Assembly: GCA_009787915.1 (NCBI GenBank)
Contig: WQSK01000001.1
Coordinates: 7,119 to 71,118, forward strand
Direction: 5' to 3'
Length of the DNA: 64,000 bases
Origin: Bacillota bacterium
GTDB lineage: Bacteria > Bacillota > Clostridia > Christensenellales > UBA1242
Shown here: positions 313-14,540 of the stretch, piece after piece
Numbering within the stretch: the stretch's first letter is position 1
Layout of the letters: each line of letters opens with the position of its first letter
Notes under the pieces: model-generated
Told to the model about the DNA's origin: nothing
Databases searched by the model: none
What the model saw: the letters and a program-made list of their open reading frames with translations, nothing else
Position numbers and translations under genes: made by a program

Positions 313-735
313 GTGACTTGTAATAAATGTAAAAGCGATTACACGATAAAGTACGGTTTGCGTTCGGGCAAACAGTGCTACTTGTGCAAAGGTTGTGGTT
401 TTCAGTTTTCTACTGACCATGCTTTTTCTGACCACGAAAAACGTGTGGCATTGACACTTTGCTGTTTTGGGCTATCAATGCGAAAGATTGGGAAGTTGCT
501 TGGGTACAGCCACGTAACAATACGAAACTGGATACGGTCTTTTGAAGAAAAACGTGAGGAACCAAACGAGGATTACTTTATGGACCTTGACGAGATTTGC
601 GAGTTCCTAAAAAAAAGAAACAGCGACCCGCGGTTTAGTAAACGGTTTTCGTCTATGCAAGATGCGTTTACATGGAACGTAGAAAACGAGATGTCTAAGG
701 TCATTGAAAAGGTTATGTCATCCCTCACTATATAA
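313..735 (+). CDS. Zn-ribbon plus HTH protein, IS1 InsA-like (no DDE transposase ORF follows)
   Basis: CxxC...CxxC ribbon (CNKCKS...CYLCKGCGFQF) followed by an HTH-like segment (LSMRKIGKLLGYSHVTIRNWI). GTG start lies 5 nt after TGaTATAAT (302-307). Confidence 0.6.
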   Translation: MTCNKCKSDYTIKYGLRSGKQCYLCKGCGFQFSTDHAFSDHEKRVALTLCCFGLSMRKIGKLLGYSHVTIRNWIRSFEEKREEPNEDYFMDLDEICEFLKKRNSDPRFSKRFSSMQDAFTWNVENEMSKVIEKVMSSLTI

Positions 736-1661: not shown

Positions 1662-2213
1662 ATGGGTGAAGATTCAGAATTGTTAGACGAACTGGACGAA
1701 AACGGCCAGTTTTTAGGACACACAGTAAAGCGTGGAGATGCGCACAAGAACGGAAACTGGCATAGGGCGGTTGTTTTATATTTGGTGAGCAGTAAAAACC
1801 AAGTCCTTTTACAACGTCGTAGTTTAAAAAAGAAAAAGTGGCCAGGCTATTGGGATTTGACAAGCGGCGGTCACGTCGATGCGGGGGAGTTGGGCTTGGG
1901 CTCGGCTATTCGCGAGTTGGAAGAAGAACTTGGTATTTCGGTCGAGGTAAAAGATGTTCGATATATCGCAGGCCGTCGTACCCAGACGGAAAAGTTCGGG
2001 ATGGTTGACAAACATCATAATGAATACTATGTTGCTTTCAAAGACGTAGACGTTAAAGATATTAAACTTAACAAAGACGAAGTCGAGGAAGCAAAATGGT
2101 TTGATTTAAGCGAATTCAAAAAAATGGTAAAGGCCAAAGACGAGAAACTTACCGCGAAATGGGCGGCGTATGAATTTTTGCTTAAATACATAGACACATA
2201 TGGCAAGAATTGA
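1662..2213 (+). CDS. Nudix hydrolase
   Basis: Nudix box GGHVDAGELGLGSAIRELEEELGI (GX5EX7REUXEEXGU). Confidence 0.85.
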   Translation: MGEDSELLDELDENGQFLGHTVKRGDAHKNGNWHRAVVLYLVSSKNQVLLQRRSLKKKKWPGYWDLTSGGHVDAGELGLGSAIRELEEELGISVEVKDVRYIAGRRTQTEKFGMVDKHHNEYYVAFKDVDVKDIKLNKDEVEEAKWFDLSEFKKMVKAKDEKLTAKWAAYEFLLKYIDTYGKN

Positions 2214-2250
2214 TTTGCCAAAAACGATATAATTGGGTGATACTTTTGTT

Positions 2251-3336
2251 ATGAGCATAACAGAAGGAGCATTGCCAACGCCTCAGGAGTTAAGGGACCA
2301 CCTTGACTCTATTGTCGTTGGTCAGGAAGATGCAAAAAAGGTTTTGTCCGTTGCGGTGTATAATCACTATAAGCGCATTCGGTTCAAAGATTCAAATGCC
2401 GAGTCGGGTATTGAAATCAAAAAAAGTAACATCATGATGATTGGTCCTACGGGTTCGGGTAAGACGTATACTTTGCAGGCGCTGTCAAAAATGTTGGGGG
2501 TTCCACTCGCGATGGGTGACGCGACGGTTATTGTTACATCAAACGATATGGGTAAAGCCATCGAGGGGCTTATGAAACTTTTGCTTGATGCCGCGGGTGG
2601 GGACGTTCAAAAAGCCGAAGCAGGTATTGTTTTCATAGACGAGGTTGATAAACTCGTTACAGGTATAAATAAGGTGAAGGGTGAGTCTATTCAACAAGCA
2701 CTTCTTAAAGTTATCGAAGGAACGATAATGCAAATCACCATGGACGACGGGAGCAAAGTCGAACTTAATACCTTCAACATTTTGTTTATCGCAGGGGGTG
2801 CGTTTGTCAACTTGGCACCTATGGTTCAGATAAGATTGGGTGATGTCAGCGCAGGTCTTTTGACCGAAGAAGAACTTGTCAAACAATCCACGACCGAGGA
2901 CTTGTCAAAATTTGGTCTTATCCCCGAGTTTGTCGGTCGTTTGCCTGTTATTGTTGTTTTGACGGCACTTAAAAAAGACGCACTTATAGAAGCCCTTGTT
3001 CGACCAAAAAACAGTATCGTAAAACAATACACCCATATGTTTCAACTCGATGGTCTGGAACTTGTGTTCTTGGAAGAAACCCTTGAGGCCGTTGCGGAAA
3101 AAGCAATAGAGATGCAAACAGGGGCAAGGGGACTTAGAACAGTTTTGGAAAATGCTATGCGTGATATCATGTACCAGATTCCAAATGAAAAAGACCTTAA
3201 ACGCGTTATCATGACACCGCAATCAATTACGGGCGAGGCTAAACCGATTTTTGAATATCAACAATCTATAAAGCAGGGGGAATTGAACCCATTACCTCCA
3301 AAAGCAACAAGGAGTACATACGCACATGCAGACTGA
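2251..3336 (+). CDS. ClpX-like AAA+ ATPase paralog lacking the Zn-binding domain, GYVG pore loop and IGF loop
   Basis: Walker A GPTGSGKT, Walker B IVFIDEVDK, sensor-2 TGARGLR, ClpX-type LIPEFVGRLPV. The segment aligned to the GYVG loop reads SNDMG. ATG at 2251 preferred over the track TTG at 2233. Confidence 0.85.
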   Translation: MSITEGALPTPQELRDHLDSIVVGQEDAKKVLSVAVYNHYKRIRFKDSNAESGIEIKKSNIMMIGPTGSGKTYTLQALSKMLGVPLAMGDATVIVTSNDMGKAIEGLMKLLLDAAGGDVQKAEAGIVFIDEVDKLVTGINKVKGESIQQALLKVIEGTIMQITMDDGSKVELNTFNILFIAGGAFVNLAPMVQIRLGDVSAGLLTEEELVKQSTTEDLSKFGLIPEFVGRLPVIVVLTALKKDALIEALVRPKNSIVKQYTHMFQLDGLELVFLEETLEAVAEKAIEMQTGARGLRTVLENAMRDIMYQIPNEKDLKRVIMTPQSITGEAKPIFEYQQSIKQGELNPLPPKATRSTYAHAD

Positions 3337-4096
3337 AACAATTAATTATAATAATGGCGACAAATATGTTGGTGACATCGTGGGCGGAAAGCGCGAGGGT
3401 TTTGGCAAGTATACCATAAAAGACGGTGGCACCTATTCGGGGCAATGGGGTGACGACCGAAAACAGGGGCGCGGAAAGTTTGATTATCCAAGTGGTGCGG
3501 TGTACGAGGGCTATTGGCACAATGACCAAAAGCAAGGACTTGGGTCTTATTATTTTTCTAACGGGGATATTTATGTTGGGAACTTTGAAAACGATATGCC
3601 GAACGGGCAAGGCACATACGCATGGCGTATAAACGGTGATAGGTACGAGGGGGACTTTGTAGACGGGGTTCCGCACGGTGAAGGCACACATATGTTTACC
3701 GACGGAAATGTTTATCAGGGTGCTTTTGAAGAAGGCTTTATGCAGGGAGAGGGTGTTTTCTATTATAAAAGCGGCGGCAGGTATACTGGGGCTTGGAAAA
3801 ACGACAAACGTCACGGGAAAGGTGTTTTGTCACTCAGTGAAAAAACAGGTTATAACGGCGACTGGGTCGATGACATGCGTCATGGAAAAGGTGTGTACCA
3901 CCTTGCAAACGGCGAGTTCTATGACGGGAGTTTCAGCCAAGGCAAGATGAATGGCACAGGCAGATACCATTATGCAAACGGAGATGTCTTGGACGGGATT
4001 TGGCACAGCGACATCAAGAACGGGAAAGGCACCTATATATACGCAGACGGTAGGCGCGAGGACCACATATATCAAGGCGACGGCCGTGTAGGTTAG
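3326..4096 (+). CDS. MORN-repeat protein
   Basis: About 10 tandem YxGxWxxxxxxGxG repeats (YEGYWHNDQKQGLG, YTGAWKNDKRHGKG and others). Overlaps the stop of the ClpX-like gene by 11 nt. Confidence 0.85.
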   Translation: MQTETINYNNGDKYVGDIVGGKREGFGKYTIKDGGTYSGQWGDDRKQGRGKFDYPSGAVYEGYWHNDQKQGLGSYYFSNGDIYVGNFENDMPNGQGTYAWRINGDRYEGDFVDGVPHGEGTHMFTDGNVYQGAFEEGFMQGEGVFYYKSGGRYTGAWKNDKRHGKGVLSLSEKTGYNGDWVDDMRHGKGVYHLANGEFYDGSFSQGKMNGTGRYHYANGDVLDGIWHSDIKNGKGTYIYADGRREDHIYQGDGRVG

Positions 4097-4097
4097 T

Positions 4098-4613
4098 ATG
4101 GAACTTATCGACACATATGACAAAGACGGTAACCATGCTGGCGTAATGGACAAGTTTGTTGCAATTGAAACTTTGCAACGGTTTAAGTGTGTTCATGTTT
4201 GGATTATAAACAGTAAGGGCGAGGTCTTGGTTCAAAAGCGTTCTGCAAACAAACGCAGTCATCCGAACGAGTGGGACGTTTCGGTCGGTGGGTTTATTCT
4301 TGCGGGTGAAGAAATTTTGGACGCGTGCGTGCGCGAAGTTTTCGAGGAGTTAGGTATCAACTTGACAAAAGAGAAGTTCGTGTTTCAATGTGCAATACAA
4401 AAGACAAAGGGTTTGATACCTTATTTGTTTCTTGTAAAGCAAGACATTGAAATCAAAGACATGAAATTACAAACCTGTGAAGTTTCGCAAGTAAAATGGC
4501 TTTCATTTAAAGATTTTGAAAAGTTTTTTGCCTCGAGAGAGTTTGTACCCCACAGCGAATATTATAGAAGCACAGTGCTTGGGTTTATCAAAAGAGGTGT
4601 TCAAGGGTTATGA
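4098..4613 (+). CDS. Nudix hydrolase
   Basis: Nudix box GGFILAGEEILDACVREVFEELGI. Same subfamily look as the 1662-2213 product. Confidence 0.8.
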   Translation: MELIDTYDKDGNHAGVMDKFVAIETLQRFKCVHVWIINSKGEVLVQKRSANKRSHPNEWDVSVGGFILAGEEILDACVREVFEELGINLTKEKFVFQCAIQKTKGLIPYLFLVKQDIEIKDMKLQTCEVSQVKWLSFKDFEKFFASREFVPHSEYYRSTVLGFIKRGVQGL

Positions 4614-6571
4614 GTTCGTTTAAAAAACTTTGGGGAAACGACATCTTTAATTTCTCGATGCTGAGGGCACTTAACCATGTCATTATGATGTTCGCCACGG
4701 TCTTTTTGAATTTGTACTTTTACGACCTAAGTGAAGGCTCGATGACACCCATCGCTATTTATAACTTGGTGTTTTTCACGGCATGCGGTCTTGTTATATT
4801 CCTTTGCCGAAACATAAACAAGGGCGGAAACAAGATGCTTCTTATTCGCGTATCGTTGGTTTTATACGCGGTGTGCTTTGTTGTGATTGCAATATTGCGC
4901 GAGGACGTCATTAACTTTGTCTGGTTGGTGGGTATATTGTTGGGCGGACAGCACGGGATGTATTTCTCGGCCAAGAACCCGCTGGAGGGCGAGATTATCT
5001 CTAACAAAATCCGTGTGCGCTATATGGGAATCATGGTTGTGGTCAATAGTGTCTTAAGTATTTTGTTTCCGCTTGTGTTTGGCGGGATTTTGACGTACCA
5101 GGCGTATTACCATGTTTCAATAGTTGTGGCTGTGTTTGTTTTGATAGCGTTATTTTTTGCGTGCCGAATCAAAAGCCCAAGTACAAACAGAGGCGAAAAA
5201 ACAAAGATGCGGGAATACCTGCGTGAACTTAAAAAACCCGAGAACAAACCCATACGGATTTTTGGCTGGGCGTACTTTTTCGGAGGCATGACCGTGTTGG
5301 GTGGTGCAATGGCATCAATATTAACTATTATAAAGTTCCAGGTCTTTGACACAAATATGGCACTAGGTGCCGCAACATCGGCGTTCACAGTCTTTTCTAT
5401 TATAAGTGGCTTCGTCATGAGCAAATTTATAAACGAACGAAACAGAAACCGATTCTTGCTATCCGTGTTTTTCTTGCAAGCAATCGCCGTGTTGATTGTG
5501 GCTTTTTACACAAACACAGGAACGATAATTGCGTTCAGTATCGTCAACGCGTTTTGCCTCGGTATGATTACGGGGCTTGTATCTGCCCAGTTTTTTAATT
5601 ATATAAATCACAAAAGCATCAAAGAAAAATATAAAATAGAATATATCGTGGTTATAGAGATGTTCATAGCCGCGGGTCGTATCTTGGGCTTTACCATTAT
5701 GGTGTTGGGCGGGGTTTTCTTTTCTTATATTTTGCTGCAAATAATCTTGGTGGTTATGGTTGTTTCATTATTTATGTTTGTTGTATTATCCTGTATTGTG
5801 AAAAACAAAATGTGCGACCAAAGAAAAGACGTCTTGGTTTTTGACTGTGACGGGACAATTACCCATGTTAAGGATAACAAGATTTCGGACTTTACATATG
5901 ACGCAATCAAAAAGGCTCAAGAAAAATACATCATCGTTTTTGCAACGGGGAGGAATCTGACCTATTTCAAACAAATGTTTGGGGACAAACCCGTAATAGG
6001 GGACTATGCGGTACTGAACGACGGGGCAAGTGTTTATGATTTGAACGGGGAAAAACTTTTGTTTGCCGACTATATCAAAAAGGACAAGTTAAAGTTGCTC
6101 CTTGAAAACCTAAACCACTGCACGCGTATTACGACCCATGATATAGAACATAAACATATTGAAACCAAAGACCTTGATATTAACGAGGTTCTAAAAGGTG
6201 ATGTTTTGCGTCTTGACCTGACACCAACAGGGCAAGACAAACCCGATGTTATTGTATCAGAACTAAACGCCCTCGGTACAAAGTTAAACATCCACAAAAT
6301 GAAAGACAGTATCCGCCCAAATTCTTGGGTAGTGGTGACTTGCGGTTTGGTGAACAAAGGAAACGGGCTTAAACGGCTGGCGAAAGTTAAAGGCTTTGAT
6401 TTGAAACGTGCAACGGCATTTGGCGATAGTTATAATGATATATCTTTCTTTGAAATATGTGGGAAAACAGTTGCCGTGGAAAACGCCGAGGCGGAACTTC
6501 TCGCTGTCGCTGGAAAAACAATCGGGACAAACGAGGATGACGCTGTGGCTAAATACATTATTGCGTTATAG
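4610..6571 (+). CDS. fusion protein: multi-pass (MFS-like) membrane domain plus C-terminal Cof-type HAD phosphatase
   Basis: About 400 aa of repeated hydrophobic helices, then HAD motif I VFDCDGTIT and motif IV FGDSYNDISFF with a Cof-like cap. Confidence 0.75.
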   Translation: MSSFKKLWGNDIFNFSMLRALNHVIMMFATVFLNLYFYDLSEGSMTPIAIYNLVFFTACGLVIFLCRNINKGGNKMLLIRVSLVLYAVCFVVIAILREDVINFVWLVGILLGGQHGMYFSAKNPLEGEIISNKIRVRYMGIMVVVNSVLSILFPLVFGGILTYQAYYHVSIVVAVFVLIALFFACRIKSPSTNRGEKTKMREYLRELKKPENKPIRIFGWAYFFGGMTVLGGAMASILTIIKFQVFDTNMALGAATSAFTVFSIISGFVMSKFINERNRNRFLLSVFFLQAIAVLIVAFYTNTGTIIAFSIVNAFCLGMITGLVSAQFFNYINHKSIKEKYKIEYIVVIEMFIAAGRILGFTIMVLGGVFFSYILLQIILVVMVVSLFMFVVLSCIVKNKMCDQRKDVLVFDCDGTITHVKDNKISDFTYDAIKKAQEKYIIVFATGRNLTYFKQMFGDKPVIGDYAVLNDGASVYDLNGEKLLFADYIKKDKLKLLLENLNHCTRITTHDIEHKHIETKDLDINEVLKGDVLRLDLTPTGQDKPDVIVSELNALGTKLNIHKMKDSIRPNSWVVVTCGLVNKGNGLKRLAKVKGFDLKRATAFGDSYNDISFFEICGKTVAVENAEAELLAVAGKTIGTNEDDAVAKYIIAL

Positions 6572-7257: not shown

Positions 7258-8835
7258 ATGGAAAAAAAGAAGGTACTTGTTGGTCTTTCGTGGCCGTACG
7301 CGAACAGTCGCTTGCACATTGGGAATGTTGCCTCGAGTTTACCTGCGGATGCGATTGCGCGCTATCACCGTATGATTGGGAATCGGGTGTCTTTTGTGAC
7401 GGGCTCGGATTGTTACGGTACGCCGATTACTGTGAGGGCAAGCAAAGAGGGTTTGACCCCGACCGAGATTGCGGAAAAATATCACGCACATCATGCCGCG
7501 GATTTTAAGGCTTTTGATTTTTCATTTGATAATTATGACAAGACTTTGTCGGCGCGCCACCACAAATTTGTCCGTGAGTTCCACGAACAAATGTACAAAG
7601 GCGACATGGTTTATGAAAAGGCGGCTCCACAGTTTTATTGCGACAAGTGTAAAAAGTTTTTGCCAGACAGATATGTAGAGGGGATTTGTCCGCATTGTAA
7701 AAAGGCGTCTAAAGGGGATTCATGTGATTCTTGCGGAAAGATTTTAGAACCTGAGGAATTGCTTTCACCAAAATGTATTACTTGTAACGGTACACCTGTT
7801 GCAAAAGACCAGACACAACTGTATATCAAATTTTCTTCAATGCAAAAAGCCATAGAAAAATATTATAAGGAACGCTGTGATAAATGGACGACCAATGCCG
7901 TTGGGTTGACGGGTCGGTATTTGAACGAGGGGTTACGTGACCGCGCGATTACTCGAAGCATTGAATGGGGGATTGATGTTCCGAAAAAAGGTTTTGAGGA
8001 CAAACGCATTTATATTTGGGCGGAAAACGTGTTGGGATATCTGTCTGCTTCGGAACCAGAGTTTTTTTCAAAACAGAGCAAAGACAATTTGCACTATTAT
8101 GTCCATGGCAAAGACAACATTCCGTTCCATGCGATTATTTTGCCTGGCTTGATAATGGCGCATGGCGGGGGATATCATTTGCCTGATATGATTGTTGCAA
8201 ACGAATATGTGACAATCTGCGGAGATAAGATATCCAAAAGCAAGGGAAATTTTATAAGTGCACATACGCTTCATGAAAACCTTGATGTTGATATGGTGCG
8301 ATATTTCTTTTTGCGTGTTATGAACGACAAGCGTGACACAAATTTCACAGCCGAAGATTTTGTTAATACAATAAATGGTGAGTTGGTTAATAATTTTGGT
8401 AATTTGGTTAATAGGACGCTTTCGTTTGTCGCGACGAAATTCGACCGTGTTATTCCAAAATCCACAAATGACAAAGTGGTTCTTGGAGAAATCAAGAATA
8501 TAAAAACCCAGTATAATGACTTAATGATGTTGGGGAGAACGAGTTTGGCACTTAAAGTTGTTATGGATTTGGTGAACTTTGGGAACAAGTATTTTGCGGA
8601 CAACAAACCGTGGACACTTGTTGGCGATGTACCAACCGCCGACCTTAAAAAAGCCCAAGCCGTAATCGGAAATGTCGTGTCAATAATATTAGAATGCACA
8701 GTAATGCTTTCCCCATTCATTCCGCGTGGAACCGCAAAGGTTTTGTCTTGGATAGGCGGGGACAAGTTGGGGGATATCGAGGTGTTGTATCAAAGGCTTG
8801 ATTTAAAAGATATTAAGGAGAAATTAAAGATATGA
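7258..8835 (+). CDS. metG: methionyl-tRNA synthetase (short form, no C-terminal tRNA-binding domain)
   Basis: HIGH-type LHIGN, KMSKS-type KISKSKGN, Zn knuckles CPHCKK...CDSCGK. Confidence 0.95.
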   Translation: MEKKKVLVGLSWPYANSRLHIGNVASSLPADAIARYHRMIGNRVSFVTGSDCYGTPITVRASKEGLTPTEIAEKYHAHHAADFKAFDFSFDNYDKTLSARHHKFVREFHEQMYKGDMVYEKAAPQFYCDKCKKFLPDRYVEGICPHCKKASKGDSCDSCGKILEPEELLSPKCITCNGTPVAKDQTQLYIKFSSMQKAIEKYYKERCDKWTTNAVGLTGRYLNEGLRDRAITRSIEWGIDVPKKGFEDKRIYIWAENVLGYLSASEPEFFSKQSKDNLHYYVHGKDNIPFHAIILPGLIMAHGGGYHLPDMIVANEYVTICGDKISKSKGNFISAHTLHENLDVDMVRYFFLRVMNDKRDTNFTAEDFVNTINGELVNNFGNLVNRTLSFVATKFDRVIPKSTNDKVVLGEIKNIKTQYNDLMMLGRTSLALKVVMDLVNFGNKYFADNKPWTLVGDVPTADLKKAQAVIGNVVSIILECTVMLSPFIPRGTAKVLSWIGGDKLGDIEVLYQRLDLKDIKEKLKI

Positions 8836-9977
8836 AAAAAACTTTTTTGCAAAATGTAAAAGGCACGTTTGACGCAGGGTGGGAAACACAAAGTATCCGT
8901 AACCACGTAACGGGGGTTTTAAGAAAGAACTTTGAGGCTTTTGGTTATTTGCCGTTGGAAACCGCAAAGGTTAATAACCTGTCTTTGCTTACGTACAAGT
9001 ACGACCCCGATGCCGAGATTGTTCGCGAGATTTACAAAATCCGTGACCAAGGCGATAGGGATTTGGGGCTTAGGTTTGATTTGACCGTGCCACTTTGCAA
9101 GTACATTGCGAACAACCAAAGTATCAAGTTGCCGATGAAACGATACGAGATTGGAAAAGTCTGGCGCAATGGACCTGTGAAAATGGGGCGCACGCGCGAG
9201 TTTTATCAATGCGACGTTGACGCGGTTGGGATTGACGGTCAACACATCGAGGCGGAACTTATATCTTTGGCAATCAAATGTTGTTTAGAGTTGGGAATAA
9301 AACCACTGGTTAAATACGGGAATAGAAAGTTACTCCCGTACTCGGACAAAATTATTTCTATAATCGACAAAATGGCAAAGGTTACGCATAAGGCACTTAT
9401 TGACGATTTGTCCAAGCACATGAAACCGAAAGAGGCCGAAGAACTTATCCACAACGTAAAAAACGCGCCAAAGATTCCCGAGGTTTTGGATTTGGAGTTT
9501 GCCCTTGGCGAACTTGGAGTTTTAGAATATTGCGAGTACGCCCCATATTTGGCGAGAGGGCTTAATGTTTATACGGGCACCGTTTACGAGTTGTATGACA
9601 GTTCGGGCAAAATACAAAGTTCAATCGGTGGAGGCGGTCGCTATGACAAAATCATTGGGAACTTTATTGATAATGGAAAACAATATCCCGCGGTTGGACT
9701 GTCACTTGGGCTTGAACCCCTTATGGCGGTGATAACCCAAACTCACCAGACAAAGAGTCCGATTGACCTTATGTTAATCCCGCTTGGTACAGAATCTTTT
9801 GCTCAAAAAATTGCAAATGATTTGCGGGCAAAGGGGCAAAACGTGTTGGTATATCTTGGGGCGAAAAATTTAGCAAAGGCTTTTGAATATGCGGCGGCGT
9901 ATGGTATAAAAAACTGTGCCGTAATCGGGCCAGACGAAGCAAAGGGCAAGGAACTGGTTATAAAGGTGGTGAACTAA
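8832..9977 (+). CDS. hisS: histidyl-tRNA synthetase (DLTVP-type)
   Basis: LRFDLTVPLCKY, motif 2 GRTREFYQCDVDAVG, motif 3 GGGGRYD, C-terminal anticodon-binding-like domain. Overlaps the metG stop by 4 nt. Confidence 0.85.
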   Translation: MKKTFLQNVKGTFDAGWETQSIRNHVTGVLRKNFEAFGYLPLETAKVNNLSLLTYKYDPDAEIVREIYKIRDQGDRDLGLRFDLTVPLCKYIANNQSIKLPMKRYEIGKVWRNGPVKMGRTREFYQCDVDAVGIDGQHIEAELISLAIKCCLELGIKPLVKYGNRKLLPYSDKIISIIDKMAKVTHKALIDDLSKHMKPKEAEELIHNVKNAPKIPEVLDLEFALGELGVLEYCEYAPYLARGLNVYTGTVYELYDSSGKIQSSIGGGGRYDKIIGNFIDNGKQYPAVGLSLGLEPLMAVITQTHQTKSPIDLMLIPLGTESFAQKIANDLRAKGQNVLVYLGAKNLAKAFEYAAAYGIKNCAVIGPDEAKGKELVIKVVN

Positions 9978-9978
9978 C

Positions 9979-10956
9979 ATGGTTGTTAAAAAAAATGTGA
10001 TACTTACAGGCGTTAAACCGTCGGGCACCTTACATTTAGGGAATTACCTTGGTGCCATTGCCCCTGCAATCAAGAGTGCAAACGAATCGACCGACAAAAG
10101 TTATTTTTTTATCGCAGACGCACATGCGCTTACAACGGTCAAGAATGCAAAAGAACTCTCGACCGCGATAAGGCACATTGCTTGTGTGTGGTTGGCGTGC
10201 GGACTTGATGTGAAAAAGACCGCGTTTTATCGCCAATCGGATATTCCCGAGATTTTTGAACTGGCTACAATAATAAGCAACGTTACCCCAAAGGGTTTGT
10301 TAAACCGCGCTCATGCTTATAAAACCGTTGTTCAAAATGCCGTAGATAAAAATCAAGACCCTGACAAAGATGTGAACGTAGGTTTGTTTACTTATCCTGT
10401 TTTACAGGCCGCAGATATTATGATTGTGGATACGTCAATAGTTCCTGTGGGGCAAGACCAAAAACAACACATCGAAATTGCCGCGGACATTGCAAAGTCT
10501 TTCAACGCCGTTTATGGAAACACACTTGTTGTTCCGAAAGATTTAATCAAGCCCGATGTCGGAACTATTGCAGGACTTGACGGGCGCAAGATGTCCAAGA
10601 GTTACGGGAATGTGATTCCATTGTTTTGTTCAGAGCAAGATTTGCTTAAAGCAATTAAACGAATTGAAACGGATTCGTCTTTGCCAACTGACCCAAAGCC
10701 GAAAGACCACCTTATATATGTATTGTACAAACATTTTACGGGGAAAGATTTGGACCCTTGTATTGGTTGGGGGGATGCGAAGCAAAGATTGTTCGACGCC
10801 GTAAACAAAGTCATCACCCCGATGAGAGAGCGATATAATTATCTTATGGAAAACTATGGCGAGGTTGAAAAGATTTTGGCTTTGGGCGCGGTGGAAACCC
10901 GAAAGGTCGCGCGCGAAACATTGAACCGCGTGCGAAAGGCGGTTGGGATATCATGA
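9979..10956 (+). CDS. trpS: tryptophanyl-tRNA synthetase
   Basis: GVKPSGTLHLGNYLGA and KMSKS (GRKMSKSYGN). Confidence 0.95.
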   Translation: MVVKKNVILTGVKPSGTLHLGNYLGAIAPAIKSANESTDKSYFFIADAHALTTVKNAKELSTAIRHIACVWLACGLDVKKTAFYRQSDIPEIFELATIISNVTPKGLLNRAHAYKTVVQNAVDKNQDPDKDVNVGLFTYPVLQAADIMIVDTSIVPVGQDQKQHIEIAADIAKSFNAVYGNTLVVPKDLIKPDVGTIAGLDGRKMSKSYGNVIPLFCSEQDLLKAIKRIETDSSLPTDPKPKDHLIYVLYKHFTGKDLDPCIGWGDAKQRLFDAVNKVITPMRERYNYLMENYGEVEKILALGAVETRKVARETLNRVRKAVGIS

Positions 10957-12404
10957 TTAAGTTTTATAATACGCTCTCCCGAGAGAAACAAGAGTTTGTC
11001 CCTATAGACAAAAAAAATAAAATCGTAAAGATGTATTCTTGTGGACCCACGGTTTATAATACCGCTACGATTGGGAACTTGCGTGCATATGTGATTGCGG
11101 ATATTTTGAAAAAGACCATAAACGCGTATGGATATAAAATTTATGATGTCATGAACCTGACCGATGTTGGGCATCTTGTGTCAGACGGCGATGACGGCGA
11201 GGACAAAGTTGAAAAGGCCGCACGGGCGCAAGGTATCACTGCCTCGGAGTTAGCCAAAAGATATACCGACCAATATTTTGTTGATTGTGAGAAACTTAAC
11301 ATCCGTCGCCCCCAAGTTGTTGCCCCCGCCACAGGTTTCATCAAACAAATGGTTGATATGGTAGAGCAACTTGAGAAAAAAGGTTTTGCCTACACAATAA
11401 AAGATGGTGTGTATTTTGATTCTTCAAAAGTTCCGACTTATAACAAACTAAGTCGCCAGCCGATTGAATCAAACATTGCGGGTGCAAGGATTGCTATGGG
11501 CGAAAAACGTAACCCTCATGATTTTGCCCTCTGGAAAATCGTCGACCCAAAGAGTTTACAGCAATGGGAAACCAAGTGGGGCAAACACGGTGCGCCTGCG
11601 TGGCATATTGAGTGCAGTGCTATTGCGCGCGAATTTTTGGGCGACACGTTTGATATTCACACGGGCGGGATTGACCATATACCGACACATCACACAAACG
11701 AGATTGCCCAGACCGAGAGTCTGACGGGCAAGCCAATGGCGAACTTTTGGATGCATAACGAGTTCATGACGGTGGACGGCAAAAAGATGTCAAAGTCTTT
11801 GGGAAATGGTTTTATGTTGTCTGACATAGAAAAAAAAGGAATCGACCCAATCGCGTTTAGATATATGTGTTTGTTGACGCACTATAGGTCGATTTTTAAT
11901 TTTACATGGGAAGGTCTGCAAAGTGCCCAAACCGCGCTTGACAATCTCGTAAAGCAATTGGCCAGGCATAAGGTTGCTGTCAAGGCTAATTCCCTCTCGC
12001 CTGCGGAACTCGGCTTGCGCCTCAAACAGTCCTCGGCTTCAAGTGAACAAGCCTCACCAGCAACCTTTTCACCGATGGTTGTGCTTTGGGATGATTTGAA
12101 TACCCCGAGGGCGGTTGCCTTGTTGTGGGACGCGGTTAAGGGCGCACCCTCGCGTGTGGTGTATGACATGGCGATTGCGTTGGATTCGGTTTTGTCACTT
12201 GATTTAGAAACGCGTGTTCAAAAGTTTTTGGCTTCACAAAAGAGCGCGGATGTTCCGAAAAAAGTTTTGGATTTGGCAAAGGCTCGGCATGAAAAGAAAC
12301 TTGCAAAAGATTGGGCAGGTGCCGATAAATTGCGTGATGAAGTATTGACTTTGGGGTACATTATTAAAGATACTAGGGATGGTTACGAGGTAATAAACAA
12401 ATGA
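10953..12404 (+). CDS. cysS: cysteinyl-tRNA synthetase
   Basis: YSCGPTVYNTATIGNLR, HIECS, KMSKSLGN. Overlaps the trpS stop by 4 nt. Confidence 0.95.
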   Translation: MIKFYNTLSREKQEFVPIDKKNKIVKMYSCGPTVYNTATIGNLRAYVIADILKKTINAYGYKIYDVMNLTDVGHLVSDGDDGEDKVEKAARAQGITASELAKRYTDQYFVDCEKLNIRRPQVVAPATGFIKQMVDMVEQLEKKGFAYTIKDGVYFDSSKVPTYNKLSRQPIESNIAGARIAMGEKRNPHDFALWKIVDPKSLQQWETKWGKHGAPAWHIECSAIAREFLGDTFDIHTGGIDHIPTHHTNEIAQTESLTGKPMANFWMHNEFMTVDGKKMSKSLGNGFMLSDIEKKGIDPIAFRYMCLLTHYRSIFNFTWEGLQSAQTALDNLVKQLARHKVAVKANSLSPAELGLRLKQSSASSEQASPATFSPMVVLWDDLNTPRAVALLWDAVKGAPSRVVYDMAIALDSVLSLDLETRVQKFLASQKSADVPKKVLDLAKARHEKKLAKDWAGADKLRDEVLTLGYIIKDTRDGYEVINK

Positions 12405-13135
12405 AAGTAAAACTCTACGGGACGGGAAGTTCGGCGGCAAAGAATTTCAGCGCATGTGCGTTTATTAATGACGAGGTTCTTTTTGATTGCCCAAATGGTT
12501 TGGTGCAAAAACTCCGCAATGACGACGTGGATTTTGACAAGGTTAAAGTCCTTATTTTGTCGCACTTTCACGGTGACCATGATTTTGATGTTCCGTTTTT
12601 TTTAGGGGCGATGGGTTTCAACCCAAGAGGTCGCAAATTAACAATCATCGCACCAAAGGGTTTTGCAAAGCGTCACAAGGTTTTATGCGACATGATTTGG
12701 CCAGGTATCTTTGGCTTTAAGGTGGCGAAGAAAAATATCGACCTAACGATATTGGAAGCCAAAGACAAAAGAGTTTTCAATATAGAGGGGTACGAGATTA
12801 AGGCATACTCTGTGTCACACTGTGAGGAGCAGGGTTGCGTTGCATATGGTTTTAAAATAACAAAAGACGGAAAAACGATTTCTTTCAGCGGTGACACTTC
12901 GATGACGGATAATGTTAGGGCTTTGGTTGATGGGGTGGATATGGCGTTTATCGAATGCACAGGCGCACCTTTATCAGAGCGGGTTCCCGTGCATATCGAT
13001 GTTCCAGAGTTTTTGGCGCTTAAAAAAGATTTTCCAGATGTTAAATTGGTTCCAATACACATGTCGGATAAGAGCAAAGAGGCTCTTGAAAAACTAGGTG
13101 TCAAGGTTCCAGAGGATGGGGATGAATATAATTGA
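12401..13135 (+). CDS. MBL-fold metallo-hydrolase (RNase Z/BN-like)
   Basis: HxHxDH motif LSHFHGDHDFD. Overlaps the cysS stop by 4 nt. Confidence 0.75.
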   Translation: MKVKLYGTGSSAAKNFSACAFINDEVLFDCPNGLVQKLRNDDVDFDKVKVLILSHFHGDHDFDVPFFLGAMGFNPRGRKLTIIAPKGFAKRHKVLCDMIWPGIFGFKVAKKNIDLTILEAKDKRVFNIEGYEIKAYSVSHCEEQGCVAYGFKITKDGKTISFSGDTSMTDNVRALVDGVDMAFIECTGAPLSERVPVHIDVPEFLALKKDFPDVKLVPIHMSDKSKEALEKLGVKVPEDGDEYN

Positions 13136-13583
13136 CGACAACCGCAAGGCAAGGTTTGACTATGCCATAGATGACAAATTCGAGGCGGGGTTGTCGTTGC
13201 TTGGGTGGGAAGTCAAATCCGCGCGCGCTGGAAACGTTAATCTTAAGGACAGTTTCGTTTATTTTCAGGTTGCATCAAACGGGGGAATAAGTGCTATACT
13301 TAAAAACGCGCATTTCTCTCCGTTTCAATTCGGTGATGTATCAACCCAGGAAACGCGCAGGGATAGGCAACTTTTGTTAAACATACATGAGATTAAAAAA
13401 ATCCATAACGCAGTTAAAACAAAAGGCGTGACATGTGTACCTCTTAGGCTGTATTTTAATAAAAGTGGTCGCGTGAAACTCGAGATTGCTATTGGAAAAG
13501 GGAAACATACTTATGACAAAAAACAAACACAGAAAGAACGTGATATTGCCCGCGAAACACGTCGGGCAATCGAAGGGATGTAG
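13116..13583 (+). CDS. smpB: SsrA-binding protein
   Basis: NRKARFDYAIDDKFEAGLSLLGWEVKS and a C-terminal basic tail. ATG at 13116 preferred over the track GTG at 13098. Confidence 0.9.
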   Translation: MGMNIIDDNRKARFDYAIDDKFEAGLSLLGWEVKSARAGNVNLKDSFVYFQVASNGGISAILKNAHFSPFQFGDVSTQETRRDRQLLLNIHEIKKIHNAVKTKGVTCVPLRLYFNKSGRVKLEIAIGKGKHTYDKKQTQKERDIARETRRAIEGM

Positions 13584-13586
13584 CAT

Positions 13587-14522
13587 ATGAGAAAAGAAGG
13601 ACAAAAAGTTAAAAACGTAAATGGCTTTAGCCGAGTGGCGACGTTGCTTGTAGGCACACGTAGGTGCGAGGCTACGAACTATTTTACAAAAGAAGTGTTG
13701 TGCAAAAAATTCGATGATTATATAGAGTTAAAAAAGAAAGAAGGCAAAGAATACAACTATCGCGATATTGCGCTCGCGGTTTTGGTGCGGATTTTTTATT
13801 TAAGACCCCAATTGAACCGCTTTGTTGTAAAGGGCAAAATCTATCAGCGTCATCATGTTGATGTGGCGTGCACCGTGCACAAGAATTTAAGAACAGGCGA
13901 AAAGGAAACGGCGATTAAATGCAGGTTCCACGGCAACGAAACATTGGACGAGGTCAAAGAACGTGTTGACTCGGCACTTAAAAAAGCGGTGTTCGAGGAA
14001 AACTCTACGGACAAGTTCGTTGACAGCCTTTTGGGTCGCGCACCGAACTTTTTGTTGCGCTTTATCGTTTGGACATTTAGGATTCGCGATAGGTGGGGAT
14101 TATTGTCAGACAAATTCATGTTTGAAACCAGCCCAATGCACACAAGCATTTTCTACGGCGACCTCAAAAGTATCCACCTAGGGGCAACTTGGCACCATTT
14201 GTACGAGTTCGGGAATTGTGGTTTTTTCCTAACAATGGGAAAGGAAACATGGAAACCCGTTGTATGCCAAAAGACACAAAAAATCACCGCAGAAAAAGTG
14301 GTGGAACTAGGGATTTCTATTGACGAGCGATTTATCGACGGTCTGACCTATAGCCAAATGCTTAAGACGATTGACAGGATTTTAGAGGACCTAACAGTTT
14401 TGGAAACTCCTGCACTCCCCGAGGACAGAAAATGGCCATATAACACAAGCGAGAAATTAAAACGCCTTCCGCGCCGTGCGAAAAAACAGGCAAGGCGTGC
14501 GGGCTTGACAATCGCCTCATAA
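13587..14522 (+). CDS. stand-alone 2-oxoacid dehydrogenase acyltransferase catalytic-domain-like protein
   Basis: C-terminal region resembles the E2/CAT fold. The expected DHRxxDG motif reads DERFIDG, so the catalytic His is replaced. No lipoyl domain. Confidence 0.5.
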   Translation: MRKEGQKVKNVNGFSRVATLLVGTRRCEATNYFTKEVLCKKFDDYIELKKKEGKEYNYRDIALAVLVRIFYLRPQLNRFVVKGKIYQRHHVDVACTVHKNLRTGEKETAIKCRFHGNETLDEVKERVDSALKKAVFEENSTDKFVDSLLGRAPNFLLRFIVWTFRIRDRWGLLSDKFMFETSPMHTSIFYGDLKSIHLGATWHHLYEFGNCGFFLTMGKETWKPVVCQKTQKITAEKVVELGISIDERFIDGLTYSQMLKTIDRILEDLTVLETPALPEDRKWPYNTSEKLKRLPRRAKKQARRAGLTIAS

Positions 14523-14540
14523 CGTGATATAAATTTCTCA

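What the first reader, a model, noticed from the sequence alone, without database searches (positions are those of the whole stretch)
1662..4613. ClpX paralog stripped of Zn finger, GYVG pore loop and IGF loop, coupled to a MORN-repeat protein and bracketed by two Nudix genes
The 361-aa protein aligns to ClpX through Walker A/B, the LIPEFVGRLP box and sensor-2 GARGLR, but three features are missing.
- It starts directly at the AAA+ module, with no Zn-binding domain.
- It has SNDMG where ClpX has AGYVG, so there is no pore-1 aromatic residue.
- It has a shortened pore-2/RKH region and no IGF tripeptide for ClpP docking.

Its stop overlaps the start of a 256-aa all-MORN protein by 11 nt. Same-subfamily Nudix hydrolases flank the pair. 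This looks like a repurposed ATPase that is neither an unfoldase nor a ClpP partner. Its function is unknown.
Basis: partly seen in the sequence, partly recalled or inferred. Interest (0 to 1): 0.55.

Follow-up and report, generated by a model that had tools for sequence, protein, structure and literature searches.

The report
Pore-less ClpX relative paired with MORN protein
This gene encodes a relative of the protein-unfolding motor ClpX that keeps its ATP engine but has lost every part that grips proteins or docks to the ClpP protease; in all 12 genomic contexts examined it sits next to a MORN-repeat protein, so databases that call it "ClpX" are very probably wrong about its job.

Summary
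Window 2251-3336 encodes a 361-aa ClpX-type AAA+ module (NCBIfam ClpX 385.8 bits; AF2 model TM 0.84-0.94 to ClpX structures). It has no Zn finger, NDMG in place of GYVG, 6-7-residue deletions in the pore-2 and RKH loops, and a ~10-residue deletion that removes the IGF loop. Its stop overlaps the start of a 256-aa all-MORN protein by 11 nt.

It is not a one-off. About 55 sequence clusters form a monophyletic family, all from uncultured Bacillota (196/200 NJ bootstraps; 43-bit profile score gap to canonical ClpX).
- All share the four loop losses.
- All keep the Walker A Lys, Walker B Asp-Glu, Arg finger and sensor-2 Arg.
- All have a family-specific C-terminal tail.

In 12 of 12 contexts the next gene is a tightly coupled all-MORN protein. 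No clpP, hslV or second clpX lies nearby. Four deep-branching members still carry the Zn finger, so loop loss and the MORN partnership came before Zn-finger loss.

The Nudix flanks occur only in this genome.

Best reading: a ClpP-independent, non-threading ATPase ring that works as a two-protein module with a MORN scaffold. The biochemical role is inferred, not shown. No literature on it was found.

The parts
2251..3336 (+). ClpX-derived AAA+ ATPase (361 aa). It has no Zn finger, no pore-1 aromatic, short pore-2 and RKH loops and no IGF loop, but its ATPase site is intact.
   Evidence: NCBIfam NF003745 ClpX 385.8 bits against a cut-off of 359, matching profile positions 57-413 of 418. phmmer to PDB ClpX, E 2e-90. 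AF2 pLDDT 90.7. Foldseek TM 0.84-0.94 to 6wrf/3hte. 100% identical to NCBI MCL2228205.1, annotated 'ClpX [Bacillota bacterium]'.
2443..2466 (+). Walker A, GPTGSGKT (aa 65-72).
   Evidence: The Lys equivalent to E. coli K125 is invariant in 55 of 55 family members.
2539..2553 (+). Remnant of the pore-1 loop: SNDMG where ClpX has AGYVG (aa 97-101).
   Evidence: Alignments. T149, G152, Y153, V154, D157 and V158 are 94-100% conserved in canonical ClpX but lost or variable in the family. 0 of 55 members have G[YFW][VI]G.
2629..2652 (+). Walker B, VFIDEVDK (aa 127-134).
   Evidence: The D184 and E185 equivalents are invariant in 55 of 55.
2656..2688 (+). Shortened pore-2 loop, VTGINKVKGES (6-residue deletion relative to E. 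coli 191-201).
   Evidence: The canonical-invariant D201 and V207 are lost.
2731..2766 (+). Shortened RKH-loop region, QITMDDGSKVEL (6-7-residue deletion, no RKH).
2833..2874 (+). Site of the deleted IGF (ClpP-docking) loop: RLGDVSAGLLTEEE.
   Evidence: A deletion of about 10 residues in all 55 members; no I/L/MGF tripeptide.
2920..2946 (+). IPEFVGRLP box containing the Arg finger (R230).
   Evidence: The R307 equivalent is invariant in 55 of 55.
3121..3138 (+). Sensor-2 motif, GARGLR (R293).
   Evidence: The R370 equivalent is invariant in 55 of 55.
3250..3333 (+). Family-specific C-terminal tail, FEYQQSIKQGELNPLPPKATRSTYAHAD (consensus [FY]EY..S..E.E..PL.PK..R...). It is predicted to be disordered and is the candidate docking element.
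   Evidence: Conserved across the family and absent from canonical ClpX. pLDDT is 53-69. The conserved Arg is encoded by AGG, CGT, CGA, AGA or CGG in different loci, so the constraint acts at the protein level.
3309..3314 (+). Shine-Dalgarno AAGGAG for the MORN gene, embedded in the ClpX-like tail codons.
   Evidence: Sequence read. The same arrangement occurs in L001 and L003.
3326..4096 (+). All-MORN protein (256 aa, about 10-11 MORN beta-hairpins), the conserved partner gene. Its start overlaps the ClpX-like stop by 11 nt.
   Evidence: Pfam PF02493, E 1.9e-57, 10 stretches. AF2 pLDDT 97.7, all-beta. Foldseek best hits are MORN1 of T. gondii, T. brucei and P. falciparum, then junctophilin. 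A MORN gene follows the ATPase in 12 of 12 contexts.
1662..2213 (+). Nudix hydrolase 1 (183 aa). Local neighbour; not a conserved part of the module.
   Evidence: Pfam NUDIX, E 3.5e-25. Nudix box at aa 70-92. IDI-like but below cut-off. No equivalent flank in 11 related contexts.
4098..4613 (+). Nudix hydrolase 2 (171 aa), 31% identical to Nudix 1. Local neighbour; not a conserved part of the module.
4610..6571 (+). MFS transporter fused to a Cof-type HAD phosphatase (653 aa). Last gene of the locally packed run 1662-6571.
   Evidence: Pfam MFS_1 plus Hydrolase_3. 4-nt overlap with Nudix 2. No terminator-like site in the short intergenic gaps of the run; three weak matches inside genes.

Best explanation
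The gene belongs to a small, monophyletic, ClpX-derived AAA+ family found so far only in uncultured Bacillota.

**What the family keeps.** Every residue needed to bind and hydrolyse ATP and to communicate around a hexameric ring: the Walker A Lys, Walker B Asp-Glu, Arg finger and sensor-2 Arg.

**What it has lost.** All four surface elements through which ClpX touches a polypeptide or ClpP, by deletion or randomisation:
- the pore-1 GYVG;
- the pore-2 loop;
- the RKH loop;
- the IGF loop.

**Partner.** The gene is always followed by a translationally coupled all-MORN protein.

**Most likely mechanism.** The two products form a stable complex. The ATPase ring no longer threads substrates and no longer feeds ClpP. 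Its ATP-driven ring movements instead bind, release or remodel the MORN scaffold, or a client held on it. MORN arrays are elongated peptide- and protein-binding, dimerising modules. They probably took over the client-platform role of the dimeric Zn-finger domain, which became dispensable and was lost in most lineages. The family-specific, disordered C-terminal tail is the best candidate for the element that docks onto the MORN groove or another partner.

**Shown here**
- ClpX-type fold and intact ATPase motifs.
- Family-wide loop losses.
- The conserved tail.
- Monophyly of the family.
- Invariable MORN adjacency with coupled translation signals.
- Absence of clpP and hslV nearby.

**Inferred**
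- Hexamer formation and ATPase activity.
- Physical ATPase-MORN complex.
- Lack of unfoldase activity and of ClpP binding.
- The role of the tail.
- The cellular target.
For: **ClpX descent**
- NCBIfam ClpX profile scores 385.8 bits.
- PDB ClpX, E 2e-90.
- AF2 model matches ClpX chains at TM 0.84-0.94.

**Loop losses are real and fixed.** See the alignments. 0 of 55 members have a GYVG-type motif. Pore-1 residues that are 94-100% conserved in canonical ClpX (T149, G152, Y153, V154, D157, V158) are variable or deleted. The deletions in pore-2, RKH and IGF are shared by all members.

**Function retained, not decay.** The K125, D184, E185, R307 and R370 equivalents are invariant in 55 of 55. This holds despite within-family divergence (0.68) as large as that among the sampled canonical ClpX (0.69).

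**Distinct family.** NJ clade support is 196 of 200. The family profile scores members at 516-588 bits and canonical ClpX at 473 bits or less.

**ClpP docking depends on the missing loop.** Association of Clp ATPases with ClpP depends on the I/L/MGF loops, and ClpB, which lacks them, does not bind ClpP (PMC9753991). The pore loops and RKH are the substrate gripping and recognition elements (PMC7468207).

**MORN partnership**
- A MORN gene lies immediately downstream in 12 of 12 contexts, in at least 8 different neighbourhoods.
- The junction ranges from a 17-nt overlap to a 19-nt gap, each with its own SD.
- The partnership is already present in the Zn-finger-bearing member P0038.

**MORN as a protein-interaction module.** The model (pLDDT 97.7) matches MORN1 dimers and junctophilin-peptide complexes. 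[quoted passage not shown]

**No protease partner nearby.** tblastn finds no ClpP, HslV or second ClpX in the window or in eight of the eleven related contexts; the gene tables of L174, L176 and L177 show none either.
Against: - No biochemical data exist for any member. ATPase activity, hexamer formation and complex formation are all inferred from sequence.
- Gene adjacency does not prove a physical complex. No co-folding could be run.
- A few members keep a hydrophobic or aromatic residue near the pore-1 position (GVVG in P0022; N[NF]FG in P0012-14), so residual peptide contact in some lineages cannot be excluded.
- A ring without pore loops has no well-established way to do mechanical work within the HCLR clade of AAA+ proteins, so the "remodels the MORN scaffold" step has no direct precedent.
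- Neighbourhoods give no consistent functional theme.
- Whether the same genomes carry canonical clpX/clpP was not testable.
Confidence: 0.55

Rival explanations
1. Regulatory or 'poison' subunit. The protein co-assembles with, caps, or competes with the canonical ClpX of the same cell, and so tunes ClpXP activity. It could form mixed hexamers that lack some pore and IGF loops, or it could titrate adaptors. MORN would act as the recruiting factor.
For: 45-50% identity to Clostridia ClpX, with the ring-interface and ATPase elements conserved. The nearest canonical sequences are from Clostridia. Some members end in ...YA.AD, faintly like the ssrA ...YALAA degron.
Against: The family has diverged as much as canonical ClpX as a whole. 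It has its own conserved tail and a dedicated partner gene, which points to an autonomous machine. The ...AD end in the window's subclade coincides with the overlapping MORN start ATGCAGACTGA, and it is not conserved family-wide. Co-occurrence with canonical ClpX was not verified.
Confidence: 0.12
2. Anti-phage or conflict module: an AAA+ ATPase plus a repeat-protein sensor, as in many two-gene defence systems.
For: - Some neighbourhoods contain defence-type genes: a Fic gene and a type V CRISPR-Cas locus in L001, SocA_Panacea in L005, a reverse transcriptase in L007, and a DUF4011/MTES_1575 helicase in L090.
- MORN-TIR fusions exist in other bacteria (P0283, P0320, P0382, P0388).
- The Nudix flanks hit the PADLOC candidate PDC-S07 at E 1e-10.
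Against: - PADLOC has no specific hit for either protein; the weak hits cover only the generic P-loop/AAA+ ATPase region.
- The immediate neighbours are mostly housekeeping genes: NusG/SecE, HflX, DnaB, ribosomal proteins, sigF, the aaRS run and gyrBA.
- Synteny is kept between related genomes (L001/L003 and L092/L176), which suggests vertical inheritance.
- There is no effector domain.
- The family was not found on viral contigs.
Confidence: 0.1
3. In this genome the module is functionally tied to the two Nudix hydrolases and the MFS-HAD phosphatase as one operon. The ATPase-MORN pair would serve a nucleotide- or phosphometabolite-related pathway.
For: Five genes are packed with gaps of 37 nt or less, or overlap, across 1662-6571. 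No terminator-like site lies in the short gaps between these genes; three weak matches fall inside genes. The two Nudix genes are paralogues.
Against: None of the 11 related contexts has flanking Nudix or HAD genes. Nudix genes are numerous in bacterial genomes, so one such arrangement is expected by chance. At most, the link is local co-transcription.
Confidence: 0.08
4. It is still a ClpP-dependent unfoldase or protease partner that uses unconventional contacts, for example the C-terminal tail docking into ClpP or another peptidase, much as HslU tails dock into HslV.
For: The conserved C-terminal tail. The HslU precedent for C-terminal docking (established knowledge). NCBI annotates the protein as ClpX.
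Against: The pore-1 aromatic needed to grip and translocate substrate is absent and the loop is unconstrained, even deleted in P0020 and P0024. The IGF loop is deleted in every member. Neither clpP nor hslV appears in any of 12 neighbourhoods (tblastn for nine, gene tables for L174, L176, L177).
Confidence: 0.05
5. A decaying duplicate of clpX with no function.
For: Loss of many functional loops.
Against: Intact ORFs occur in 55 clusters. Catalytic residues are invariant across deep divergence. The family has gained a conserved tail. The partner gene and translational coupling are conserved.
Confidence: 0.02

Closest known systems
Canonical bacterial ClpX (E. coli P0A6H1; PDB 3HTE, 6WRF)
   Same: Same AAA+ large and small domain fold (TM 0.84-0.94). 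45-47% identity. Same Walker A/B, IPEF.GRLP Arg-finger box and GARGLR sensor-2. Scores above the NCBIfam ClpX cut-off.
   Different: - No Zn-binding domain in 51 of 55 members.
- No pore-1 GYVG.
- Pore-2 and RKH loops shortened by 6-7 residues each.
- IGF loop deleted.
- An extra conserved tail of about 25 residues at the C-terminus.
- An obligate MORN neighbour in place of clpP linkage.
ClpP-independent ClpX of yeast mitochondria (Mcx1), and ClpP-independent ClpX activities in general (from my own knowledge, not tested here)
   Same: A ClpX-type ring that works without ClpP.
   Different: Those proteins still use pore loops to unfold or partially unfold clients. Here the pore loops themselves are gone.
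ClpB/Hsp104 as the precedent that lack of the I/L/MGF loop means no ClpP association (PMC9753991)
   Same: A Clp-family ATPase with no ClpP-docking loop.
   Different: ClpB keeps aromatic pore loops and threads polypeptides. It has two AAA+ rings.
All-MORN proteins MORN1 of Trypanosoma, Toxoplasma and Plasmodium (PDB 6T4R, 6T6Q, 6T4D; PMC7725318)
   Same: The partner protein is likewise made only of MORN repeats. It is the best Foldseek match (E 7e-22, 33-35% identity) and has the same elongated beta-hairpin array.
   Different: Bacterial. About 10-11 repeats. A conserved C-terminal E..EY.ND.RV motif. Encoded with an AAA+ ATPase. Dimerisation not tested.
Junctophilin-CaV1.1 and MORN4-Myo3a complexes (PDB 7RXQ, 6JLE)
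   Same: They show that the MORN groove binds an extended peptide or helix of a partner. This is the model for docking of the ATPase tail.
   Different: Eukaryotic. No ATPase is involved. The analogy is inferred, not tested.
HslU C-terminal tail docking into HslV (established knowledge)
   Same: A sister AAA+ family (HslU profile E 3e-44) in which a C-terminal tail is the partner-docking element.
   Different: No hslV nearby. The tail sequence is unrelated. HslU has pore loops and an I-domain.
Phage ClpX-like protein on IMG/VR contig L173
   Same: ClpX-like AAA+ module without the Zn finger.
   Different: It keeps GYVG, GRK and SIGF, has no MORN neighbour, and is only 41% identical. Loss of the Zn finger alone therefore does not define the family described here.

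Membership tests
ClpX (functional ClpXP unfoldase) | ClpX-type AAA+ module recognised by the curated profile | tested here: met
   NF003745 scores 385.8 bits against a cut-off of 359. TIGR00382 scores 367.4, just below its 370.75 cut-off. Foldseek TM 0.84-0.94 to ClpX chains.
ClpX (functional ClpXP unfoldase) | Walker A, Walker B, Arg finger and sensor-2 residues | tested here: met
   K71, D130/E131, R230 and R293 are present. Their equivalents are invariant in 55 of 55 family members.
ClpX (functional ClpXP unfoldase) | N-terminal C4 zinc-binding domain | tested here: not met
   The profile match starts at position 57 of 418. No PF06689 hit. No CxxC motifs. 4 of 55 family members retain it.
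ClpX (functional ClpXP unfoldase) | Pore-1 loop GYVG with an aromatic residue | tested here: not met
   SNDMG at aa 97-101. 0 of 55 members have G[YFW][VI]G, and the loop is unconstrained.
ClpX (functional ClpXP unfoldase) | Full-length pore-2 loop | tested here: not met
   6-residue deletion; the canonical-invariant D201 and V207 are lost.
ClpX (functional ClpXP unfoldase) | RKH loop | tested here: not met
   6-7-residue deletion; RKH absent.
ClpX (functional ClpXP unfoldase) | IGF/LGF/MGF loop for ClpP docking | tested here: not met
   About 10-residue deletion; no tripeptide in any of 55 members. Requirement as stated in PMC9753991.
ClpX (functional ClpXP unfoldase) | Genomic linkage to clpP (commonly tig-clpP-clpX) | tested here: not met
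   tblastn with E. coli ClpP, HslV and ClpX finds only the paralogue itself in the window and in eight of the eleven related contexts. L174, L176 and L177 were fetched later; their gene tables show no clpP, hslV or second clpX.
ClpX (functional ClpXP unfoldase) | Hexamer formation, ATP-dependent unfolding, ClpP activation | not testable with these tools
   Needs biochemistry or multimer modelling.
MORN-repeat proteins (Pfam PF02493) | Tandem 23-residue MORN repeats that form a beta-hairpin array | tested here: met
   10 repeats, E 1.9e-57. The AF2 model is all-beta with pLDDT 97.7. Top PDB matches are MORN1 and junctophilin.
MORN-repeat proteins (Pfam PF02493) | C-terminal antiparallel dimerisation, as in MORN1 | not testable with these tools
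   Only a monomer could be predicted.
Nudix hydrolases | Nudix box GX5EX7REUXEEXGU | tested here: met
   GHVDAGELGLGSAIRELEEELGI (aa 70-92 of Nudix 1) and GFILAGEEILDACVREVFEELGI (aa 65-87 of Nudix 2). Pfam NUDIX, E 3.5e-25 and 3e-18.
Type 1 IPP isomerase (nearest named Nudix subfamily) | Score above the equivalog cut-off | tested here: not met
   93.7 and 53.5 bits against a cut-off of 127 for NF002995.
Known anti-phage defence systems (PADLOC-DB 2.0) | Specific match of the ATPase or the MORN protein to a defence-system model | tested here: not met
   The ATPase gives only weak hits confined to its generic P-loop/AAA+ ATPase region (E 4e-6 or worse). The MORN protein gives none.

The most novel reading that the evidence does not exclude
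ClpX'-MORN is a previously unrecognised type of two-component ATP-driven machine. A ClpX-derived ring has abandoned polypeptide threading altogether. It uses nucleotide-driven ring motions, transmitted through a new C-terminal tail, to assemble, disassemble or reposition a MORN-repeat scaffold, or clients bound to that scaffold. The MORN dimers would have replaced the Zn-finger domains as the client platform. It would be the first HCLR-clade AAA+ protein shown to work without pore loops, and the first assigned role for a bacterial MORN protein.
Probability: 0.35. Interest if true: 0.72.

Novelty: new variant of a known kind. Interest (0 to 1): 0.58.

Why it matters
**Annotation.** Public pipelines name these proteins "ATP-dependent Clp protease ATP-binding subunit ClpX". 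They pass the NCBIfam equivalog cut-off, yet they lack every element that makes ClpX an unfoldase and a ClpP partner. A family-specific model would separate them cleanly (43-bit score gap).

**Mechanism.** ClpX is the textbook model for pore-loop-driven translocation. This is a natural, conserved derivative that keeps the motor but has deleted pore-1, pore-2, RKH and IGF together. It amounts to a ready-made experiment on what a ClpX ring can do without threading.

**MORN repeats.** Bacterial MORN proteins have no assigned function. An invariant genetic partnership with an ATPase gives a concrete handle for testing one.

**Evolution.** The order of events is resolved: a MORN partner and loop loss first, Zn-finger loss later. 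This illustrates how a protease-coupled unfoldase can be rebuilt into a different machine.

**Limits.** The family is rare. It is known only from metagenome-assembled Bacillota and has no cultured host, which limits its immediate impact.

Tried and rejected
- **Genome scan for named hosts.** A scan of 185,579 species genomes with the window protein returned only canonical ClpX at 50% identity or less. It gave no family member and not even the source genome. It therefore gave no information on named hosts or on co-occurrence with canonical clpX.
- **Metagenome scan.** It returned only canonical ClpX.
- **Exact-sequence look-up.** No contig was on record for the window protein or for P0001.
- **MORN homologue search.** The search returned only generic MORN proteins at 28-50% identity. 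The partners themselves were not retrieved, so the partner family could not be delimited this way.
- **MORN structure prediction.** An alignment of generic MORN hits was used instead.
- **Co-folding.** Co-folding of the ATPase with the MORN protein is not possible with the tool. It predicts single chains, and the two genes are in different frames.
- **First NJ script.** It timed out and was rewritten in numpy.
- **50%-identity representative library.** The search collapsed the family to two obvious representatives (P0122, P0129). This makes it of little use for sizing the family.
- **PADLOC.** No defence-system match.
- **Literature.** Searches for 'ClpX paralog', ClpX + MORN repeat, MORN + AAA+ + operon, ClpX + IGF loop + paralog, and ClpX-like + pore loop + ClpP-independent found nothing on this family. 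A search for sample id 3300010162 found nothing. The termite-gut origin that I recall for these IMG samples therefore stays unverified.
- **tmRNA.** No tmRNA gene in the window or the loci, so the tail could not be compared with the host ssrA tag.
- **ssrA-mimic idea, rejected.** I considered whether the ...YA.AD end is an ssrA-mimic degron. It occurs in only a subset of members. In the window's subclade it coincides with the overlapping MORN start codon context.
- **SD-artefact idea, rejected.** I considered whether the conserved tail Arg is an artefact of the embedded Shine-Dalgarno. It is encoded by five different codons, including in loci where the SD lies after the stop codon.

Full report
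**1. What is in the window**

On the + strand, five genes are packed between 1662 and 6571, with gaps of 37 nt or less, or overlaps:
- Nudix hydrolase, 1662-2213.
- ClpX-like ATPase, 2251-3336.
- All-MORN protein, 3326-4096.
- Second Nudix hydrolase, 4098-4613.
- MFS transporter fused to a Cof-type HAD phosphatase, 4610-6571.

Pfam and NCBIfam confirm these assignments.

The ATPase most likely starts at the ATG at 2251. This start has GGGTGA 13 nt upstream, agrees with the N-termini of the homologues, and gives 361 aa. The longer TTG ORF from 2233 has no ribosome-binding site.

The ATPase stop (TGA, 3334-3336) overlaps the MORN ATG (3326) by 11 nt. A strong AAGGAG lies 11 nt upstream of that ATG, inside the ATPase tail codons. 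No terminator-like site falls in the short gaps between the five genes; the three weak + strand matches lie inside genes, and the promoter-like matches are weak.

The wider window is ordinary bacterial chromosome: gyrB-gyrA, uvrB, uvrA, an ABC-F protein and a run of aminoacyl-tRNA synthetase genes.

**2. The loop losses are real**

phmmer against PDB chains aligns residues 7-338 to E. coli ClpX 62-415 at E 2e-90.

Retained elements:
- Walker A, GPTGSGKT.
- Walker B, VFIDEVDK.
- IPEFVGRLP (Arg finger).
- GARGLR (sensor-2).

Lost or changed elements:
- E. coli TEAGYVGEDVENI aligns without gaps to TSNDMGKAIEGLM. Tyr153 is therefore Asp and Val154 is Met.
- The pore-2 loop lacks 6 residues.
- The RKH region lacks 6-7 residues and has no RKH.
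- The IGF loop region lacks about 10 residues and has no I/L/MGF.
- The NCBIfam ClpX profile is matched from position 57 of 418 only, so there is no Zn finger.

The AF2 model built on the family alignment is confident (pLDDT 90.7), apart from the last 20 or so residues. It superposes on ClpX chains from 6WRF and 3HTE at TM 0.84-0.94.

**3. It is a family, not an accident**

A search of 5.8 billion proteins returned the identical protein. This is NCBI MCL2228205.1, 'ClpX [Bacillota bacterium]', from a MAG contig of 168 kb. The search also returned about 40 proteins of 345-429 aa at 47-69% identity that lack the Pfam ClpX Zn-finger domain. Canonical ClpX follows at 45-50% identity.

A profile built from these 40 sequences retrieves 53 clusters at 516-588 bits. 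The best canonical ClpX scores 473 bits.

Findings across 55 sequences, including two divergent representatives from the 50%-identity library:
- None has a G[YFW][VI]G motif.
- All share the pore-2, RKH and IGF deletions.
- In P0020 and P0024 the pore-1 loop itself is deleted.
- The equivalents of K125, D184, E185, R307 and R370 are invariant in 55 of 55.

Column statistics show where canonical-invariant residues are lost. They lie almost only in the Zn finger, pore-1 (T149, G152, Y153, V154, D157, V158) and pore-2 (D201, V202, G206, V207).

The family has also gained a conserved C-terminal extension (E335, K351, R354 in window numbering). Its consensus is [FY]EY..S..E.E..PL.PK..R....

A neighbour-joining tree of 42 family members and 31 canonical ClpX recovers the family as a clade in 196 of 200 bootstraps. 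Its internal divergence (0.68) equals that among the sampled canonical ClpX (0.69). The nearest canonical sequences are from Clostridia.

This pattern is what is expected of a functional, ATP-hydrolysing ring protein whose substrate- and ClpP-contacting surfaces are no longer under selection. It is not the pattern of a pseudogene.

**4. Order of events**

Four members (P0026, P0035, P0038, P0402) still carry an N-terminal CxxC...CxxC Zn finger but already lack all four loops. P0038 was confirmed to have the MORN partner.

Loop loss and the MORN partnership therefore came before loss of the Zn finger. 'Stripped of Zn finger' describes the window's lineage, not the family as a whole.

**5. The conserved unit is ATPase + MORN, not the Nudix bracket**

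Exact-sequence look-ups gave genomic context for eleven family members, in loci L001-L008, L089-L092 and L174-L178. In every case the next gene on the same strand encodes a protein of 207-273 aa. Pfam identifies each one as made of MORN repeats (E 3e-36 to 3e-67). With the window, that makes 12 of 12.

Junction types:
- 11-nt overlap with the identical ATGCAGACTGA: window, L001 and L003 (using the internal Met).
- 14-17-nt overlaps: L092, L174, L176.
- ATGA overlap: L007.
- 9-19-nt gaps: L005, L089, L090, L177.

Each junction has a Shine-Dalgarno sequence.

The surrounding genes differ widely:
- NusG/SecE/HflX.
- RNase III and PGI.
- UbiA and EamA.
- NusA.
- CDP-alcohol phosphatidyltransferase.
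- Radical SAM, RNase H and sigF.
- ScpA/B.
- DnaB and ribosomal proteins.

Two pairs of contexts share synteny (L001/L003 and L092/L176), which suggests vertical inheritance.

No related context has flanking Nudix genes. Unlinked Nudix genes lie 6 kb away in L001 and 2 kb away in L174, on the opposite strand. tblastn with E. coli ClpP, HslV and ClpX finds nothing except the paralogue itself in the window and in the eight related contexts fetched by then. The gene tables of L174, L176 and L177 show no clpP, hslV or second clpX either.

**6. The partner**

The MORN protein is predicted with pLDDT 97.7 as a continuous array of about 11 beta-hairpins. Its best PDB matches are the all-MORN proteins MORN1 of T. 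gondii, T. brucei and P. falciparum (E 7e-22 to 2e-19). Next come the ciliary MORN proteins, junctophilin including its CaV1.1-peptide complex, and more weakly MORN4-Myo3a.

Sajko et al. (PMC7725318) found no membrane binding for TbMORN1. They describe MORN repeats as protein-protein interaction modules that dimerise through their C-termini.

The eight aligned partner proteins share a C-terminal E..EY.ND.R[VI] motif in addition to the repeat consensus. There is only one MORN gene in the window.

**7. How it most likely works**

From the literature:
- Association of Clp ATPases with ClpP depends on the I/L/MGF loops. ClpB, which lacks them, does not associate with ClpP (PMC9753991).
- The pore loops and RKH motif are the elements for substrate recognition, gripping and translocation. 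The Zn-binding domain is a dimerisation and adaptor domain (PMC7468207 and the references in it).

A protein that has deleted all of these but keeps an invariant ATPase site is best read as a ClpP-independent, non-threading, nucleotide-driven ring.

The invariant, translationally coupled MORN gene points to a stoichiometric complex. I infer three further points:
- MORN dimers provide the client or anchoring platform that the dimeric Zn finger used to provide. This explains why the Zn finger could later be lost.
- The new disordered C-terminal tail is the docking element. This follows the analogy of peptide binding in MORN grooves and of HslU tails.
- ATP-driven ring motions bind, release or remodel the MORN scaffold or its clients.

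Only the sequence-level statements are shown here. The complex, the ATPase activity and the target are inference. I put 0.55 on the core statement and about 0.35 on the full remodelling-machine reading.

**8. Rivals**

- **Regulatory or poison subunit for canonical ClpX (0.12).** Plausible from the 45-50% identity. It is disfavoured by the deep divergence, the family's own tail and its dedicated partner.
- **Defence module (0.10).** Some defence-type genes lie nearby and MORN-TIR fusions exist elsewhere. Against it, PADLOC gives no match, the neighbours are mostly housekeeping genes, synteny is retained, and no effector domain is present.
- **Local functional link to the Nudix and HAD genes (0.08).** Seen in 1 of 12 contexts only.
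- **Unconventional protease partner (0.05).** No pore-1 aromatic, no IGF loop, and no peptidase gene nearby.
- **Pseudogene (0.02).** Effectively refuted by the conservation pattern.

**9. Comparison with what is known, and novelty**

By descent and fold this is a ClpX. By the features that define ClpX function it fails five of seven sequence tests, and it also fails the clpP-linkage test. It should therefore not be filed as ClpX.

Its relation to the nearest known cases:
- Yeast Mcx1 also works without ClpP but keeps its pore loops (from my own knowledge).
- ClpB also lacks the ClpP-docking loop but still threads polypeptides.
- A jumbo-phage ClpX-like protein (L173) lacks the Zn finger but keeps GYVG and IGF.

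Six literature searches found nothing on a pore-less ClpX family or on a ClpX-MORN pairing. Only the CC-licensed and bioRxiv library was searchable.

I rate it a new variant of a known kind. It is of moderate interest because of its bearing on AAA+ mechanism and the clean annotation error. Interest is tempered by rarity, an uncultured host and the lack of any functional data.

**10. Limits**

- Whether the same genomes carry canonical clpX/clpP could not be tested.
- The habitat is unverified. I recall the IMG sample ids as termite-gut metagenomes, but the search for one of them found nothing.
- The taxonomy rests on the depositors' labels: Bacillota/Firmicutes bacterium and Christensenellaceae bacterium.

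Noticed in passing
window 7258-17479 (+), continuing to 21870: A tightly packed, partly overlapping run of aminoacyl-tRNA-synthetase genes: MetRS (7258-8835), a short HisRS-like gene (8832-9977, 381 aa), a TrpRS/TyrRS-class gene (9979-10956), CysRS (10953-12404) and SerRS (16157-17479). Interspersed are an MBL-fold gene and a 2-oxoacid_dh-like acyltransferase. Two ABC exporter genes follow (18243-21870). Five aaRS genes in one operon-like run is unusual. They may be the housekeeping set of a compact genome, or paralogues.
   Followed up: partly
window 4610-6571 (+): A single 653-aa ORF fuses an MFS transporter (aa 47-360) to a Cof-type HAD-IIB phosphatase (aa 407-651). It overlaps the end of Nudix 2 by 4 nt.
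   Followed up: no
window 313-735 (+): A 140-aa ORF with an N-terminal CxxC...CxxC motif and HTH_23/HTH_38 domains. It looks like an IS-element OrfA/InsA-type protein. It is followed by a DUF11-like ORF (761-1120) and a Cys-rich 169-aa ORF (1137-1646) with no Pfam hit.
   Followed up: no
window 34210-39300 (+) and 34-38 kb: A 1696-aa ORF with no Pfam hit. It lies in the only stretch of the first 54 kb of the window where GC skew turns negative. It may be a horizontally acquired surface or giant protein.
   Followed up: no
window 56174-57776: A large serine recombinase (Resolvase + Recombinase + Zn_ribbon_recom; 56250-57776, - strand) abuts tRNA-Ser (56174-56262). GC falls to 35-39% towards the end of the window. 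This is probably the edge of an integrated element.
   Followed up: no
protein P0121 (from the representative library): A 1238-aa protein with three tandem ClpX-like AAA+ modules. By eye, they keep a G-Y-x-G-type pore-1 motif (VGYHG, AGYIG, VSYRG) but no recognisable IGF loop. P0234 (1053 aa) is an FtsH-like domain followed by two ClpX-like modules. Other degenerate ClpX architectures therefore exist.
   Followed up: partly
L173 4893-6038 (IMG/VR contig IMGVR_UViG_3300045988_182417, 198 kb): A jumbo-phage-sized viral contig encodes a 381-aa ClpX-like protein. It has no Zn finger but keeps GYVG, GRK and SIGF, so it is a presumptive functional unfoldase. It is unrelated to the family described here.
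   Followed up: partly
window 3310-3333; C-termini of P0001-P0010, P0020, P0022, P0024, P0391: Many family members end in ...[YF]A.AD-COOH, faintly like the ssrA degron ...YALAA. In the window, L001 and L003 this end is encoded by the same nucleotides as the overlapping MORN start (ATGCAGACTGA). The conservation may therefore reflect dual coding rather than a degron.
   Followed up: partly
L001/L002 16754-21074: A type V CRISPR-Cas locus lies about 5.7 kb downstream of the ATPase-MORN pair in the closest relative: a Cas12-like protein with REC1/RuvC/NUC domains, plus Cas1, Cas2 and Cas4. A small Fic gene lies immediately upstream of the pair.
   Followed up: no
L177 5309-6004 and L178 994-1689: In one lineage, a 231-aa ORF with no Pfam hit overlaps the start of the ATPase gene by 4 nt. 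It lies downstream of dnaB and could be a lineage-specific third component.
   Followed up: partly
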